From Paludibacteraceae bacterium (lineage in GTDB: Bacteria; Bacteroidota; Bacteroidia; Bacteroidales; Paludibacteraceae): DNA of 64,000 nt. The notes under the pieces are model-generated. The model was not told the origin of the DNA and ran no database searches. It saw only the letters and a program-made list of their open reading frames with translations. A program made the translations under genes and the position numbers. The stretch covers positions 2,711 through 66,710 of the forward strand of contig JAKSNX010000001.1 of assembly GCA_024405815.1 (NCBI GenBank). Reading direction: 5' to 3'. This document shows positions 47,797 through 52,246 of the stretch, in pieces (the first letter of the stretch is position 1; the number at the start of each line of letters is the position of its first letter).

Positions 47797-47826
47797 ATGT
47801 ACTTTTGTGAAACAATTTTTTCTGCT

Positions 47827-49251
47827 ATGACAATAACTGATTTGGAGCCAAAGGCAGTTTGGCGCTATTTTGCTGAGATATGTAGTGTGCCACGTGGTTC
47901 AGGCAACGAGGCTGGCGTAAGAAACCATATAATAGGTTTTGCAAAAGAGCACGGTTTTGAGTACAAAGTGGATGATGTAGGCAACCTGATAATGCGTAAA
48001 GACGGCATCGGTAAAAGCATCGTATTGCAAGGGCACATGGACATGGTGTGTGAGAAAAACTCTGACACCATACACGATTTCCGCAAAGACCCTATTGAGG
48101 TTATTATAGACGGAGATACCGTTAAGGCTAAAGGCACCACATTAGGCGGTGATGACGGCATAGGTTTGGCTATTGCCATGGCACTGTTTACAGACCCTGA
48201 TGTAACCTGTCCGTTAGAGGCACTGTTCACCGTGGAGGAAGAGACAGGCTTGACAGGAGCCATCGGGTTAAAGCCAAATCTGCTGAAATCATCAATTATG
48301 ATAAATTTGGACTCAGAAGATGATGAGGAGATTATAATAGGCTGTGCCGGAGGCATTGACACATCTCTGTGGTTAGAGATAGAGAGAGAGAAACCCGATT
48401 TTACTCCGTTTGGCATACACCTTAAACTAAGCGGTTTTACCGGAGGCCATAGCGGCGAGGATATAGATAAACCACGTGCCAATGCAAACAAACTGCTTGC
48501 TGAGTTTCTAAAGAGTCTCAATATAGCCTATAGAATTGTTAACATAAGTGGCGGTGGTCTCCGTAATGCAATCCCACGTGAGGCAGAGGCTACAATTGTA
48601 GTGCCTTGGGAAGATAAAGAGAATGCCCGTATAGCGTGGAATCTATTTGAGGCAGCCACAGAAACCAAATGGAAGACGCACGAGCCCGATATGATTATGA
48701 CGTTGGAGTCTGTAGAACCGGCAGAAGATGCCTACACAAAATGTCTTACAGAAAAAATAGTGAATCTGTTATGTGAAGTTCCGCATGGTCCTATAGAGTT
48801 CTGCAAGAATATGCCTACAATGGTAAACACCTCCACTAACCTTGCCTTTATACGTGACCAATACGGAAAGATTCTTATAGGCACAAGCCAACGTTCAGCT
48901 AATTTAGGGAAACGCGATGCCATTGCAAACAAAATATCTGAAATAGGAGCAAAATATGGTGCAGTAACCACACACTCAAGCGGATACCCTGGGTGGGAAC
49001 CAAAAGAGAACTCCGCCTTACTTAATACGGCAGTACAAACTTACAAAGAGCTGTTTGGCGGCAAGCCAAAAGTAAAGACCATACATGCAGGACTTGAGTG
49101 TGGGCTTTTCTCCAAATCGTACCCTGGTATGGATATGATTTCAATAGGTCCTAAAATTTTAGGAATCCACTCACCGGCAGAGACTCTATATATAGAGACA
49201 GTAAAAAAATGTTGGTTGTTTACAAAAACTCTCTGTCAAGCATTGCAGTAA
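47827..49251 (+). CDS. pepD: Aminoacyl-histidine dipeptidase (M20 family, PepD)
   Basis: The ATG at 47827 lies after the terminator; the 47797 start would abut it. LEPKAVWRYFAEICSVPRGSGNE, LQGHMDMV and TTLGGDDGIG are colinear with E. coli PepD. Confidence 0.88.
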   Translation: MTITDLEPKAVWRYFAEICSVPRGSGNEAGVRNHIIGFAKEHGFEYKVDDVGNLIMRKDGIGKSIVLQGHMDMVCEKNSDTIHDFRKDPIEVIIDGDTVKAKGTTLGGDDGIGLAIAMALFTDPDVTCPLEALFTVEEETGLTGAIGLKPNLLKSSIMINLDSEDDEEIIIGCAGGIDTSLWLEIEREKPDFTPFGIHLKLSGFTGGHSGEDIDKPRANANKLLAEFLKSLNIAYRIVNISGGGLRNAIPREAEATIVVPWEDKENARIAWNLFEAATETKWKTHEPDMIMTLESVEPAEDAYTKCLTEKIVNLLCEVPHGPIEFCKNMPTMVNTSTNLAFIRDQYGKILIGTSQRSANLGKRDAIANKISEIGAKYGAVTTHSSGYPGWEPKENSALLNTAVQTYKELFGGKPKVKTIHAGLECGLFSKSYPGMDMISIGPKILGIHSPAETLYIETVKKCWLFTKTLCQALQ

Positions 49252-49281: not shown

Positions 49282-50400
49282 ATGGACAATTTTGTAGTAT
49301 CGGCGTTAAAGTACAGACCTGCCACATTTGACACTGTGGTTGGTCAGAAATCACTTGTAACTACTCTGCGTAATGCCATAAAAACAGGCCAGATATCACA
49401 TGCATACCTGTTTTGCGGACCAAGAGGCGTAGGCAAGACCACCACTGCCCGTATATTTGCAAAAAACATAAACTGTCTGAACCCCACCGCTGATGGCGAT
49501 GCATGCGGAGAGTGTGAATCGTGTAAGGCGTTTGAGGAAAAACGCTCAATGAACATTCATGAACTAGATGCTGCTTCAAATAACAGTGTTGACGACATTC
49601 GTGGGCTTATAGAGCAAGTACGCATACCACCCCAAATAGGGAAATACAGCGTATATATAATAGATGAGGTTCACATGTTATCTCAGAGTGCCTTTAACGC
49701 ATTTCTTAAGACACTTGAGGAGCCACCTGCGTATGCCATCTTTATACTTGCAACCACAGAGAAGAACAAAATTCTGCCTACCATAATATCCAGATGTCAG
49801 GTTTATGACTTTAACCGTATGAGCGTTAATGACACCGTGAATCATCTAAAAAACATTGCAAAAAAGGAGGGGATAGAAGCAGAAGATGAAGCACTTAACG
49901 TTATAGCTGTTAAAGCTGACGGAGGTATGCGTGACGCATTGTCCATTTTTGACCGTGTAGTTAGCTTTTGCGGTAACAAAATTACCTACAAGGATGTCAT
50001 AGATGACCTTAACATTCTGGATTACAACTACTATTTTAAAAGTGTGGATTTGTTCCTAAACAAGGATATCAGTGGAGCTCTTATGATGTTTGATGAGATT
50101 CTATCTGCAGGATTTGACGCTCATAACTACGTTTTAGGACTGATGGAACATCTGCGTAATGTATTGGTGTGCAAGGATAGCGTTACGGTGCAGTTACTTG
50201 AGGTTGGAGATTCAATTAAGGAATCATATATCAAGCAGGCGGAAAGATGTACTCAAGAATTTTTATTTGAGGCATTGGAAGTTGCAAATGACTGTGATTT
50301 AGGCTATAAGCAAAGTAAAAACAAGCGGCTTACAGTAGAGTTGATGTTAATCCGGATGTGCCAACTTCTGGAGCAAAAAAAAAATCAGGATAAGGAATAG
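49282..50400 (+). CDS. dnaX: DNA polymerase III subunit gamma/tau, zero-frame product (clamp-loader domains I-III, 372 aa) ending 5 codons after an A10 run
   Basis: GPRGVGKTT Walker A, zinc module CGECESCKAF, IIDEVHMLS, and sensor SRCQ. The zero frame reads ...EQKKNQDKE then stop. Confidence 0.9.
   Translation: MDNFVVSALKYRPATFDTVVGQKSLVTTLRNAIKTGQISHAYLFCGPRGVGKTTTARIFAKNINCLNPTADGDACGECESCKAFEEKRSMNIHELDAASNNSVDDIRGLIEQVRIPPQIGKYSVYIIDEVHMLSQSAFNAFLKTLEEPPAYAIFILATTEKNKILPTIISRCQVYDFNRMSVNDTVNHLKNIAKKEGIEAEDEALNVIAVKADGGMRDALSIFDRVVSFCGNKITYKDVIDDLNILDYNYYFKSVDLFLNKDISGALMMFDEILSAGFDAHNYVLGLMEHLRNVLVCKDSVTVQLLEVGDSIKESYIKQAERCTQEFLFEALEVANDCDLGYKQSKNKRLTVELMLIRMCQLLEQKKNQDKE
50375..50384 (+). 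other. dnaX: A10 homopolymer inside dnaX: candidate transcriptional-slippage/frameshift site, or a homopolymer indel
   Basis: Ten consecutive A. The run lies inside the only 50 nt interval (50351-50400) where both the zero frame and the +1 frame are open. Confidence 0.8.
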
Positions 50401-50974
50401 ACGCAAGATATTACCATTTTTCCCAAGTATTGAAGAATCTCCAAAATTCTCACTCCCTATTAAAACCTCTGTAGTAGAGGCTAAAGAAACAGCCCCAAAA
50501 AAGCCTGTTGCAATCAAATATAACGGAAAGATAGACCTATCACTAAATGCAGCACTTACAACTACCGCCCAATCTGCCAAAGCAGAGCATACTGCAAATG
50601 GTGTGCAACGTAACGAGGAGGTGAATGAAGAGTATTTGGCTCAATTATGGATACGTTTTCCAGCCTATATCAAGCAAAAATCAAGTCTTCACTATATTTT
50701 CCGTAAACCTCCATTGTGGGTTAGTGCAGAAAACATGGTAAAAGTGGAGATATCGGGAAAAATAGCGGCAGAAGAGATGACTGATATTCTGCCAAAACTT
50801 ACTAAATACTTACAAGACAACTTAAAAAATGATTCCATTCACATTAAGTTGGAAATAGATGAGTCAAAAGCGGGAAACATGGACCTCTCTCCAGCTGGCA
50901 AGGCAAAAGCTATGGCACAAAAGAACGAGAAATTAAGAGACCTATGCCGCAAACTGAATTTAGATTTTGCATAA
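50384..50974 (+). CDS. dnaX: dnaX C-terminal (tau-specific) portion, encoded in the +1 frame relative to 49282..50400
   Basis: The +1 frame is open from 50351 to 50974: IRIRNRRKILPFFPSIEESPKFSLPIKTSVVEAKETAPKKPV...EEYLAQLWIRFPAYIKQ...LCRKLNLDFA. The ORF track reports only 50603..50974, starting at GTG. There is no plausible independent ATG. The joined product would be about 563 aa. Confidence 0.7.
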   Translation: MRIRNRRKILPFFPSIEESPKFSLPIKTSVVEAKETAPKKPVAIKYNGKIDLSLNAALTTTAQSAKAEHTANGVQRNEEVNEEYLAQLWIRFPAYIKQKSSLHYIFRKPPLWVSAENMVKVEISGKIAAEEMTDILPKLTKYLQDNLKNDSIHIKLEIDESKAGNMDLSPAGKAKAMAQKNEKLRDLCRKLNLDFA

Positions 50975-50984
50975 CTTATTGTAT

Positions 50985-51293
50985 ATGAACATACTACGTA
51001 AAATATTCAACAAATATACCATAACCTTGGCTGTATTCCTGTTTTTTCTGTTCCTTGGAGAAAAGCACAACTTACGGCAACGTGCCAAATACAAGCACGA
51101 GATAGAGGAACTGGAGAAAGAGATTGAATACTATAAATCTGAAACAGAGAAGATTAACGAGCGTCTTAAAGAACTTACCCTTGAGAATGAAAATCTGGAG
51201 CGTTTTGCCCGTGAACAGTATCTTATGAAAAATCCCGATGAAGACGTATATGTAATAAGGGACAAGGGACAAGGGTCAAGGGTCAAGGACTAA
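50985..51293 (+). CDS. Septum formation initiator family protein (FtsB/DivIC-like), 102 aa
   Basis: The ATG at 50985 lies after the dnaX stop. It has an N-terminal TM helix (ITLAVFLFFLFL) and a coiled coil (HEIEELEKEIEYYKSETEKINERLKELTLENENLERFAREQY). Confidence 0.7.
   Translation: MNILRKIFNKYTITLAVFLFFLFLGEKHNLRQRAKYKHEIEELEKEIEYYKSETEKINERLKELTLENENLERFAREQYLMKNPDEDVYVIRDKGQGSRVKD
51259..51290. repeat. Tandem heptanucleotide repeat (GGGACAA x2, GGGTCAA x2, plus partial GGAC)
   Basis: Read directly from the sequence. It occupies the last 11 codons of the ftsB-like ORF and touches the stop codon of the convergent gene. Confidence 0.8.
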
Positions 51294-52246
51294 TGTTTTG
51301 CCCAATACCACAGTTTAAGTAGGGGGTTGTTGATTTTTGAAATCTGCGAGAAAGGGGTTAATACAGCCCCGAATGATTGGTTTTTCAGAGCCACACCATG
51401 TATCATACTGCCCTCAAAATCGTAATTTTTAGTCTTGGTAGAGAGATACTCAATAGCTTTATATACAATCAATGTTGACGCTCCACTACTACGGAATCTA
51501 TCATCAATGTATATTACAAGATTATAAGCCGAAACATTGTCCCACACTACAAATAGAGCTGTGGCAAGTTCTTCTTTTTCACTATAAAGAGAAAATATCT
51601 GCCCCTGTCCCTTGTCAGATGTGGCTTTATGTATGTTAAGAAATCTATTTTTTGAATAAAATATCTTTTGTCCTTCTGACCTCAACTGAGAAGCATATAA
51701 ATCATAAAAAGTCTCTGCGTTAAGATTTAACCTTAATTCAAAATTTCCCATAGCCTTTGCCAACGGTTTTTGGCGTTTGCGGTGCGACATACCGCTTAAC
51801 ACAGCATCTAAATCAGATATATTTCCCAATCTATATGTATATCTGGTTGTTTGTGAAAATCCATTCCAATAAAACGGCTGCCAATAATTCTGCGAATAGT
51901 GGAAATTAAGTTCAAACAAATCTGGTTTAAGAGCATCTATCTGCCCAATTAAATCATTATAAGTCTCATTCTCAAAACTGTAACGGGACTCTATGGTAAG
52001 GTTATCGGGGTAGAACAGCCATGTGCCACTATATTGTGTAAGGGTTGCCGGCACAATAAGAAACCTGCCCATTTTTTTTACATAGTGATACACAAATACT
52101 CCGCTTACACCCCCGTTCTTATCATACGATAAAAGAGCGTTCCAATCATCACCGCAAGCGGCATCCATCCACCAAGTCTGAAGAAACAATGGAATTTCAG
52201 GATGTTTCTCGCACAATTTTCTATATTCTCTCTTATTATCCTCCAT
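51290..52246 (-). CDS. FemAB-like / GNAT-fold acyltransferase family protein (tentative)
   Basis: 318 aa. The overall pattern (N-terminal IPLFLQTWWMDA..., C-terminal ...ALFVVWDNVSAYNLV...GASTLIVYKAIEY...YDFEGS) resembles the BioF2-like/FemAB acetyltransferase proteins seen in polysaccharide loci. This rests on my recollection of the family, not a search. Confidence 0.45.
   Translation of the reverse strand: MEDNKREYRKLCEKHPEIPLFLQTWWMDAACGDDWNALLSYDKNGGVSGVFVYHYVKKMGRFLIVPATLTQYSGTWLFYPDNLTIESRYSFENETYNDLIGQIDALKPDLFELNFHYSQNYWQPFYWNGFSQTTRYTYRLGNISDLDAVLSGMSHRKRQKPLAKAMGNFELRLNLNAETFYDLYASQLRSEGQKIFYSKNRFLNIHKATSDKGQGQIFSLYSEKEELATALFVVWDNVSAYNLVIYIDDRFRSSGASTLIVYKAIEYLSTKTKNYDFEGSMIHGVALKNQSFGAVLTPFSQISKINNPLLKLWYWAKH

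What the first reader, a model, noticed from the sequence alone, without database searches (positions are those of the whole stretch)
50351..50974. dnaX is broken at an A10 run: full-length tau needs slippage or frameshifting, unless the run is an assembly indel
The zero frame of dnaX (from 49282) ends at 50400, five codons after a run of ten A (50375-50384). That gives a 372 aa gamma-like protein covering clamp-loader domains I-III.

The +1 frame is closed upstream (stops at 50342 and 50348). It opens at 50351 and stays open to 50974. It encodes about 196 aa with no plausible ATG of its own and the Pro/Lys-rich linker-plus-C-terminal-domain architecture expected of a tau-specific part. The -1 frame stops two codons after the run (TCA GGA TAA).

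The A-run therefore sits exactly inside the only 50 nt window where a frame change yields a roughly 563 aa tau. mRNA with 9 or 12 A, or a +1 ribosomal shift, would give tau. The genomic frame gives gamma.

This is the reverse of E. coli, where tau is the zero frame and gamma comes from a -1 shift. It resembles the transcriptional slippage described for Thermus dnaX and for poly-A interrupted genes in endosymbionts. The mundane alternative is a homopolymer sequencing error.
Basis: partly seen in the sequence, partly recalled or inferred. Interest (0 to 1): 0.7.

Follow-up and report, generated by a model that had tools for sequence, protein, structure and literature searches.

The report
dnaX tau needs poly-A slippage
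The replication clamp-loader gene dnaX here is genuinely split at a conserved run of ten A's, so the full-length tau protein can only come from mRNA (or ribosomes) that slip by one base; this is a little-described +1 version of a trick already known for dnaX in related bacteria.

Summary
dnaX (49282-50400) ends five codons after an A10 run (50375-50384). The +1 frame (50384-50974) encodes the tau-specific linker and C-terminal domain.

Six independently assembled strains carry A10. Eight further diverged lineages of the same Paludibacteraceae clade also have A10 with tau in +1; one more assembly has A11. None has A9 or A12. The +1 ORF is under purifying selection and has no conserved start codon.

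Among 80 Bacteroidota species, 60 have an A9-A13 run at this junction (52 are exactly A10). In every one, a single frame carries tau and the other two close within 15 codons. Tau lies in frame 0 (44 loci), -1 (13) or +1 (3).

The "gamma in frame, tau by recoding" design was published by Antonov et al. 2013, but only as a -1 type. Two features were absent from the papers I could search: the +1 direction, and a hairpin abutting the run (50351-50372) that is strongly enriched phylum-wide.

The likeliest mechanism is programmed transcriptional slippage, giving A9 or A12 mRNA. This is inferred, not shown.

Verdict: a real +1 variant of a known kind, of moderate interest.

The parts
49282..50400 (+). 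dnaX zero-frame ORF: a gamma-like product of 372 aa (clamp-loader domains I-III) ending NQDKE, with stop TAG at 50398-50400
   Evidence: ORF. Pfam DNA_pol3_delta2, DNAX_ATPase_lid, DNA_pol3_gamma3. NCBIfam NF011531, positions 1-367.
50351..50372 (+). Predicted nascent-RNA hairpin (TCCGGA.TG....CA.TCTGGA, dG -9.2 kcal/mol). It ends 2 nt before the A-run and is a candidate slippage stimulator.
   Evidence: fold; 79% of cells paired versus 24-50% when slid, and six pair types at one pair; enrichment of run-abutting hairpins, 27/70 versus 3% background and 2.6 +/- 1.6 in composition-matched shuffles.
50375..50384 (+). A10 slippery run, starting at codon 365 phase 1 (C AAA AAA AAA AT). This is the site of the frame change.
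   Evidence: The same run at the same codon and phase is present in L001-L005, L086-L090, L094, L095 and L097.
50391..50393 (+). -1 frame stop (TAA). mRNA with A11 would give a second gamma-like product, ...EQKKKSG (370 aa).
   Evidence: The K[SL]G* ending is conserved in the clade.
50384..50974 (+). +1-frame tau-specific region: 196 codons plus stop TAA at 50972-74. It has a disordered linker (about residues 1-70) and a folded C-terminal domain (about residues 75-196, window 50606-50971; PF28557/DUF8439).
   Evidence: NF011531 positions 446-613, E 1e-16. PF28557; pN far below pS; no start codon for 73 codons; aligns with in-frame tau C-termini. AF2 pLDDT 83-95 for the domain.
50342..50350 (+). 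Two +1-frame stops (TGA at 50342-44, TAA at 50348-50). They limit the frame overlap to 11 codons ending at the run.

Best explanation
This is a programmed, evolutionarily conserved split of dnaX at an A10 tract. Faithful mRNA (A10) encodes a 372-aa gamma-like clamp-loader subunit. RNA polymerase slips on the ten-A tract, which matches its 9-10 bp RNA-DNA hybrid, and makes a mixed population of transcripts.

- Transcripts with A9 or A12 join the +1 frame and encode full-length tau (563 or 564 aa).
- Transcripts with A11 encode a second gamma-like form (370 aa).

A hairpin in the nascent RNA ends 2 nt before the tract. It probably promotes realignment and may favour the one-base deletion.

Shown here: the anatomy, its conservation, selection on both parts, and the hairpin enrichment. 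Inferred: that the slip happens during transcription, its direction and efficiency, and the hairpin's role.
For: Not an error:
- The identical 372-aa product was called in six assemblies. Their dnaX DNA differs from the window by 20-23 substitutions, and all have A10.
- Clade relatives with 75-96% gamma identity (L086, L094, L087-L090, L095, L097) all have A10 at codon 365 phase 1 with tau in +1.
- No assembly has A9 or A12.
- In the protein database, every relative of at least 72% identity that ends at this site stops at about 368-375 aa.

Functional +1 ORF:
- It matches the C-terminus of the Bacteroidota DnaX model and aligns with in-frame tau C-termini.
- pN is 0.12-0.40 against pS of 0.58-0.85.
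- There is no NTG start for 14-112 codons after the run in ten +1-type lineages.

Designed switch:
- 60 of 80 Bacteroidota species have A9-A13 at this junction, and 52 have exactly A10.
- The two non-tau frames close after a median of 3 codons (135 of 140 within 7). Tau sits in frame 0, -1 or +1 in different lineages with the same A10.

Transcription rather than translation:
- The run length matches the RNAP hybrid (PMC5009743, section 43).
- Antonov's rule assigns orthologues that shift in both directions to transcriptional realignment (PMC3711429).
- Downstream stem-loops are not enriched.
- Upstream run-abutting hairpins are enriched and show covariation.
- IS1447 has a stem-loop followed by A9. 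Its cDNA showed 9/52 clones with A8 and 8/52 with A10, against 30/30 A9 in genomic DNA, and the deletion gives the full-length protein (PMC6211511).
Against: - No RNA or protein data exist for this organism or any Bacteroidota dnaX, so two products and heterogeneous mRNA are unproven.
- A10 contains an in-phase A_AAA_AAA heptamer in every phase. Ribosomes can slip or slide on poly-A (PMC4363877), so a translational contribution cannot be excluded.
- Thermus dnaX slippage gives mainly insertions (PMC5009743). That would make the +1 arrangement, which needs -1 or +2, less efficient than the -1 arrangement.
- The hairpin lies in coding sequence. Only about half of the zero-type loci and a third of the -1-type loci have it. 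The 11/11 association with the +1 type rests on only about 4-5 independent lineages.
Confidence: 0.68

Rival explanations
1. Programmed ribosomal frameshifting or sliding on the A-run. The mRNA is faithful (A10). A fraction of ribosomes with tRNA-Lys in the P site shift +1 (or -2) on A AAA AAA AAA U and continue into the tau frame.
For: - E. coli dnaX uses ribosomal -1 frameshifting on A_AAA_AAG (PMC3711429, PMC5009743).
- A10 always contains an in-phase A_AAA_AAA heptamer (sequence).
- Ribosomes slide on iterated AAA codons (PMC4363877, abstract only).
- The 2016 review itself describes the reversed dnaX types as 'derived from ribosomal frameshifting' (PMC5009743, section 21).
Against: - Downstream stem-loops within 10 nt of the run are not enriched: 16% versus 22% background at dG <= -8.
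- A heptamer would suffice for frameshifting, yet the run is held at exactly 10 in 52 of 60 loci.
- The same run serves tau in 0, -1 and +1 frames in orthologues. Antonov et al. treat that pattern as diagnostic of transcriptional realignment.
- There is no slow or stop codon in the zero-frame A site to drive a +1 shift in the window (AAU CAG).
- The enriched structure is on the 5' side and abuts the run. That is the geometry of slippage stimulators, not frameshift stimulators (PMC5009743, section 43).
Confidence: 0.2
2. Sequencing or assembly indel. The real genome has A9 or A12 and an uninterrupted 563/564-aa tau ORF.
For: Homopolymers are error-prone. One near-identical pair of metagenome contigs differs in run length, A10 versus A11 (L097 and L096).
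Against: - Six independently assembled strains with 20-23 SNP differences all have A10.
- Eight further lineages, saturated at synonymous sites, have the same run, phase and +1 arrangement.
- No assembly has an in-frame length, and the A11 variant is also out of frame.
- No fused tau with more than 56% identity exists among 5.8 billion proteins.
- In-frame relatives also carry A10, so an 'A9 truth' would itself be atypical.
Confidence: 0.02
3. A true gene split or decay. Gamma is the only DnaX made from the first ORF, and the C-terminal domain is either translated separately from an internal start or is a decaying remnant.
For: Gene callers annotate a separate 86-204-aa ORF carrying PF28557 downstream of the truncated dnaX in every assembly.
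Against: - The called starts are not conserved: the first NTG lies at codon 14 to 112 and the first ATG at 71-144, inside the folded domain.
- The frame is open from the run itself in all ten +1-type lineages. That is 512 start-free, stop-free codons in total, against a 3.8% stop density in the other frames.
- The linker plus domain is under purifying selection.
- The two other frames always close at once, which a simple split would not require.
- From general knowledge of E. coli, tau must be tethered to the clamp loader to couple the polymerase.
Confidence: 0.05
4. DNA-level phase variation. The A-tract changes length during replication, and subpopulations with A9 or A12 supply tau.
For: A10 tracts are mutable at the DNA level. 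L096 (A11) versus L097 (A10) may be a natural polymorphism.
Against: - dnaX is a core replication gene. From general knowledge of E. coli, tau is needed in every cell, so a minority genotype could not sustain the population.
- The consensus length is A10 in every lineage over deep divergence, which indicates selection on the length itself.
- No in-frame consensus has been seen.
Confidence: 0.03

Closest known systems
Two-ORF dnaX with a poly-A tract (Antonov et al. 2013, NAR 41:6514, PMC3711429: Flavobacterium johnsoniae, F. psychrophilum, Cytophaga hutchinsonii, Capnocytophaga, Chlorobium, Coraliomargarita)
   Same: The zero frame ends just after an A10 run at the gamma/tau boundary. Tau requires recoding, and transcriptional realignment was proposed. 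It is the same phylum-level group (for the species list, for the text).
   Different: All 17 published genes are -1 at the DNA level and need one extra A. The window and its clade are +1 and need one A fewer or two more. No upstream hairpin was described. The Paludibacteraceae lineage was not sampled.
Thermus thermophilus dnaX (Larsen et al. 2000, as summarised in PMC1088944 and PMC5009743)
   Same: A homopolymeric A-run at the same functional boundary. RNAP slippage makes mRNAs in all three frames, and stops lie close by in the non-tau frames.
   Different: In Thermus, tau is the zero-frame product and gamma comes from slippage. The run is A9. It has been shown experimentally, whereas the case here has not.
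IS1447 transposase of Clostridium thermocellum (Liu et al. 2018, PMC6211511)
   Same: An mRNA stem-loop directly followed by an A-run. Slippage occurs in both directions, at about 16% each in cDNA. Only the one-A deletion (+1 frame) gives the full-length fusion protein.
   Different: It is a mobile-element transposase with an A9 run in a Firmicute. It is not an essential chromosomal replication gene.
Stem-loop-stimulated transcriptional slippage in Roseiflexus IS630 (Penno et al. 2015, as described in PMC5009743 section 43)
   Same: A nascent RNA hairpin immediately 5' of the slippage motif promotes forward realignment, giving a transcript that lacks one nucleotide and restores the long ORF.
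   Different: The motif is heteropolymeric (T5C5) and slippage depends strictly on the hairpin. A10 is expected to slip even without a hairpin.
E. coli dnaX -1 programmed ribosomal frameshift
   Same: The same gene and the same boundary, giving two products that share domains I-III. The site is lysine-codon-rich and slippery.
   Different: Tau is in the zero frame. The A_AAA_AAG heptamer works with a 5' SD-like element and a 3' stem-loop. The mechanism is translational and the direction is -1.

Membership tests
dnaX with a poly-A programmed realignment site (Thermus / Antonov two-ORF class) | The gene is a DnaX orthologue with clamp-loader domains I-III upstream of the site | tested here: met
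   Pfam PF13177 (E 8e-48), PF22608, PF12169. NF011531, 766 bits against a cut-off of 685 for the fused protein.
dnaX with a poly-A programmed realignment site (Thermus / Antonov two-ORF class) | A homopolymeric A-run of about 9-10 nt at the domain III/IV (gamma/tau) junction | tested here: met
   A10 at 50375-50384, codon 365. The same position is found in 60 of 80 Bacteroidota loci.
dnaX with a poly-A programmed realignment site (Thermus / Antonov two-ORF class) | The tau-specific C-terminal region is encoded contiguously with the run in another frame, is homologous to in-frame tau, and is under selection | tested here: met
   homology; pN far below pS; open from the run, with no conserved start.
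dnaX with a poly-A programmed realignment site (Thermus / Antonov two-ORF class) | Stop codons lie close after the run in both non-tau frames | tested here: met
   Window: 5 codons (zero frame) and 3 codons (-1 frame). Phylum-wide median is 3, and 135 of 140 close within 7.
dnaX with a poly-A programmed realignment site (Thermus / Antonov two-ORF class) | The run and the frame arrangement are conserved among relatives | tested here: met
   14 assemblies of the clade have A10 with tau in +1, and one has A11.
dnaX with a poly-A programmed realignment site (Thermus / Antonov two-ORF class) | -1 direction at the DNA level, as in all 17 published two-ORF genes | tested here: not met
   Tau codons start at 50384, which is +1 relative to 49282. 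Hence a variant of the class, not a plain member.
dnaX with a poly-A programmed realignment site (Thermus / Antonov two-ORF class) | Heterogeneous A-run length in mRNA but not in DNA, and two DnaX protein sizes | not testable with these tools
   No transcriptome or proteome data are accessible.
E. coli-type dnaX -1 ribosomal frameshift cassette | An A_AAA_AAG heptamer with a 3' stem-loop 5-10 nt downstream | tested here: not met
   The run is followed by T, not G. Downstream hairpins are not enriched. The direction needed is +1.
Hairpin-stimulated transcriptional slippage (Roseiflexus IS630 / IS1447 type) | A stable nascent-RNA stem-loop immediately 5' of the slippage motif | tested here: met
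   Window 50351-50372, dG -9.2, 2-nt spacer. Covariation. Enrichment.
Hairpin-stimulated transcriptional slippage (Roseiflexus IS630 / IS1447 type) | Slippage efficiency or direction depends on the stem-loop | not testable with these tools
   This needs reporter or in vitro transcription assays with stem-breaking and compensatory mutants.

The most novel reading that the evidence does not exclude
Across Bacteroidota, dnaX carries a composite slippage cassette: a nascent-RNA hairpin, a 0-3 nt spacer, and exactly A10. This cassette acts as a three-frame switch. Evolution has repeatedly moved the essential tau domain between frames 0, -1 and +1 while keeping the cassette. In the +1 lineages, including this window, the hairpin drives a one-nucleotide deletion by RNA polymerase. 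Chromosome replication then depends on a structured, terminator-like transcriptional 'error'.
Probability: 0.35. Interest if true: 0.6.

Novelty: new variant of a known kind. Interest (0 to 1): 0.42.

Why it matters
Tau tethers the replicative polymerase and helicase to the clamp loader. [quoted passage not shown]

The comparative picture offers a natural experiment on how slippage efficiency and direction are tuned:
- The run is fixed at exactly A10.
- Both non-tau frames close almost at once.
- The tau frame has flipped many times.
- A hairpin often abuts the run.

It is directly testable in genetically tractable relatives such as Flavobacterium johnsoniae or Bacteroides-type hosts. It does not open a new category, because the principle was established for Thermus dnaX in 2000 and the reversed arrangement was reported in 2013.

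Tried and rejected
- **Wrong-frame query.** My first tblastn with the 'C-terminal' query used the -1 frame by mistake and matched only the window's own copies. Its 'frame_rel' column should be ignored. It was redone correctly.
- **Genome scan row limit.** Close relatives were recovered through the look-up of encoding contigs and a junction-pattern scan of metagenomes.
- **Pfam.** It found no significant family for the +1 product, only a sub-threshold SpoIIAA-like hit. The precomputed PF28557/DUF8439 label and NCBIfam NF011531 gave the identification.
- **PDB profile search.** Nothing meaningful for the tau-specific region.
- **Foldseek against PDB.** The AF2 model gave nothing at E <= 0.001. 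The best weak hits were DnaA domain I (4tps) and DciA (8a3v, 7ykm). This is only a hint of a replication-protein interaction fold.
- **Downstream frameshift-type stem-loop.** Not enriched.
- **dS estimates.** Saturated for most pairs, so only pN versus pS and three dN/dS values (0.12-0.24) are usable.
- **Literature gaps.** Larsen et al. 2000 (PMC26496) is not held. Searches for dnaX with Bacteroidetes or Flavobacterium found only Antonov 2013.
Full report
**1. The observation**

The sequence is as described.
- dnaX starts at 49282 and its zero frame ends at TAG 50398-50400, giving 372 aa that end ...LLEQKKNQDKE.
- A run of ten A lies at 50375-50384, beginning at codon 365, phase 1. It is the longest homopolymer in the window; the other twelve runs of at least 8 nt are all exactly 8.
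- The +1 frame is closed at 50342-44 and 50348-50 and then open to 50974.
- The -1 frame stops at 50391-93.
- Removing one A yields a 563-aa protein with the junction EQKK|IRIRNR. Adding two yields 564 aa.

An A10 somewhere in 64 kb is not unusual in itself, since shuffles give 1.44 on average. The signal is its location and its conservation.

**2. What the two parts are**

The 372-aa product carries clamp-loader domains I-III: PF13177, PF22608 and PF12169. The +1 product matches positions 446-613 of 614 of NCBIfam NF011531, the Bacteroidota-type DnaX, at E = 1e-16, and the fused protein scores 766 bits against a cut-off of 685. Gene callers label the downstream fragment PF28557/DUF8439.

Tau-specific regions from 29 loci align as one family, with a conserved W, an L-x-N motif and a KNPxLxxLxxxLxLD tail. 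This holds whichever frame they lie in.

An AlphaFold2 model shows a disordered linker of about 70 residues and a confident alpha/beta domain with pLDDT 83-95. No solved structure matches significantly. The best weak Foldseek hits are DnaA domain I and DciA, which I treat only as a hint.

**3. Not an assembly error**

- The identical 372-aa protein was called in six assemblies from different samples. The five with DNA differ from the window by 20-23 substitutions within dnaX, and all have A10.
- In the 5.8-billion-protein database, relatives from 96% down to 72% identity end at 366-375 aa with ...EQKKN*...EQKKNQDKE..* or ...DEKKK*. Full-length proteins appear only at about 50-56% identity.
- DNA for L086, L094 and L087-L090 (75-96% gamma identity) shows A10 at the same codon and phase. 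Tau is in +1, and the -1 frame closes after 3-4 codons.
- A junction-pattern scan of metagenomes that allowed 8-13 bases in the run found three more contigs. Two have A10 with tau in +1. One has A11, which is still out of frame.
- No assembly shows A9 or A12.
- Synonymous sites are saturated between these lineages (pS 0.56-0.85), yet the run survives, although AAA to AAG would be silent.
- The +1 ORF has pN of 0.12-0.40, well below pS, and dN/dS of 0.12-0.24 where it can be computed.

**4. Not a separately translated ORF**

In ten +1-type lineages the tau frame is open from the run itself, but the first NTG codon lies 14-112 codons downstream at non-conserved positions. The first ATG is at codon 71-144, inside the folded domain.

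**5. The wider pattern**

I examined 80 species-representative Bacteroidota dnaX loci.
- **Run length:** 60 have an A-run of 9-13 nt at this junction: 52 with A10, five with A9, two with A11 and one with A13.
- **One open frame:** in every case exactly one frame after the run is long (tau).
- **The other two frames:** they close after a median of 3 codons. 135 of 140 close within 7, and the maximum is 15.
- **Which frame holds tau:** frame 0 in 44 loci, -1 in 13 and +1 in 3 (L012, L016, L074).

On a neighbour-joining tree of the gamma domains, the +1 state appears in at least 4-5 places and the -1 state in at least 7. The window's clade is monophyletic, with a zero-frame sister, L092. Bacteroidaceae-, Muribaculaceae- and Rikenellaceae-like lineages have lost the run.

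So the run length is held constant while the frame that carries tau changes. That is the signature of a slippage site serving all three frames, as in Thermus dnaX (PMC1088944, PMC5009743).

**6. Flanking structure**

The 30 nt upstream of the run fold into a hairpin of at least 5 bp that ends 0-3 nt before the run.

| Comparison (dG <= -8) | Run-abutting hairpin |
|---|---|
| Observed at the run | 27 of 70 loci |
| Other positions in the same genes | 3.1% (p about 1e-22) |
| Non-redundant set | 14 of 47 versus 3.3% |
| Composition-matched shuffles | 2.6 +/- 1.6, maximum 9 |

In the window the hairpin is 50351-50372 (dG -9.2), followed by GC and then A10. In a 15-sequence Bacteroidales alignment, 79% of cells pair, against 24-50% when the partner is slid by 1-3 columns. 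One pair shows six standard pair types and another shows three. Downstream hairpins of the kind that stimulate ribosomal frameshifting are not enriched.

The hairpin (at dG <= -5) is present in 11 of 11 +1-type loci, 22 of 46 zero-type loci and 4 of 13 -1-type loci. However, eight of the eleven belong to one clade, so the association with direction is only suggestive.

**7. Mechanism**

The best-supported reading is programmed transcriptional slippage.
- The run equals the 9-10 bp RNAP hybrid (PMC5009743, section 43).
- Orthologues use both directions, which is Antonov's criterion for transcriptional realignment (PMC3711429).
- The enriched structure sits on the 5' side, in the geometry of the Roseiflexus IS630 stimulator, which promotes forward realignment and one-nucleotide deletions (PMC5009743, section 43).
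- IS1447 provides an experimental precedent. A stem-loop is followed by A9. cDNA gave 9 of 52 clones with A8 and 8 of 52 with A10, against 30 of 30 A9 in gDNA. Only the deletion, which is the +1 frame, gives the full-length protein (PMC6211511).

Here, A10 and A11 transcripts would give gamma-like products of 372 and 370 aa, while A9 and A12 would give tau. None of this has been measured. A translational contribution (a +1 or -2 shift, or sliding on poly-A) cannot be excluded.

**8. Comparison with what is known**

Antonov et al. [quoted passage not shown] It comprised 17 genes from 12 genera spanning two ORFs, nine of them with A10, and included Flavobacterium, Cytophaga, Capnocytophaga and Chlorobium. 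Tau required recoding, and all were -1 at the DNA level. [quoted passage not shown]

I could not find three things in the searchable literature:
- the +1 direction;
- the extent of A10 conservation in zero-frame tau genes across Bacteroidota;
- the hairpin abutting the run.

**9. Verdict**

The finding is real and correctly interpreted, and it is a +1-direction variant of a known kind of programmed recoding. The recoding itself is close to certain (about 0.95). The transcriptional mechanism is likely (about 0.7). The hairpin's role is plausible (about 0.5). Interest is moderate.

Noticed in passing
L063:2788-2790 and L080:3602-3604 (uncultured Bacteroidales dnaX): These two dnaX genes have no A-run. 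They have an in-frame TAG at the same domain III/IV boundary, in a conserved context (TAG ATT GCN AGG), and the tau-specific 189-201 aa continue in the same frame. This looks like a stop-codon-readthrough version of the gamma/tau switch. TAG also ends other ORFs in these loci, so a global reassignment seems unlikely. The sister locus L027 is uninterrupted.
   Followed up: partly
L006-L085 (80 Bacteroidota species representatives): 44 loci have full-length tau in the zero frame reading through an A9-A11 run, with stops within 1-15 codons in both other frames. This is a Thermus-like design for making gamma by slippage. It appears to be the majority state of the phylum, yet it would be invisible to frameshift-finding pipelines.
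   Followed up: partly
L096:486-523 versus L097:495-531: Two near-identical metagenome contigs of one species differ only in run length, A11 versus A10, at the dnaX site. Both lengths leave tau out of frame (-1 and +1 respectively). This is either a natural tract-length polymorphism or an assembly error.
   Followed up: no
L049:3600-4397: dnaX with a 383-aa zero frame and the tau part in the +1 frame. The frames overlap by 17 codons and there is no homopolymer or obvious slippery site. It is either an assembly error or a different shift site.
   Followed up: no
L019:4027-4245: A zero-frame tau gene with A10 has an extra frame break near its C-terminus, so the last 73 aa lie in the -1 frame. 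This is probably an assembly error.
   Followed up: no
Proteins P0007, P0012, P0014, P0039: These DnaX entries of 464-719 aa contain exact internal tandem duplications of 50-120 residues. They look like assembly artefacts rather than longer isoforms.
   Followed up: no
window 50384-50971 (model m747001925ebf): The folded tau C-terminal domain (DUF8439) has no significant structural match. Its best weak Foldseek hits are DnaA domain I (4tps) and the DnaB-loader DciA (8a3v, 7ykm), at E 0.03-0.16. This hints at a shared small replication-protein interaction fold.
   Followed up: partly
window 47797-49251, 50985-51293, 51290-52246: Gene order is conserved around dnaX throughout the clade: an M20 peptidase upstream, then a DivIC/FtsB-like septation gene directly after the tau stop, then a convergent Acetyltransf_6-like gene.
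   Followed up: no
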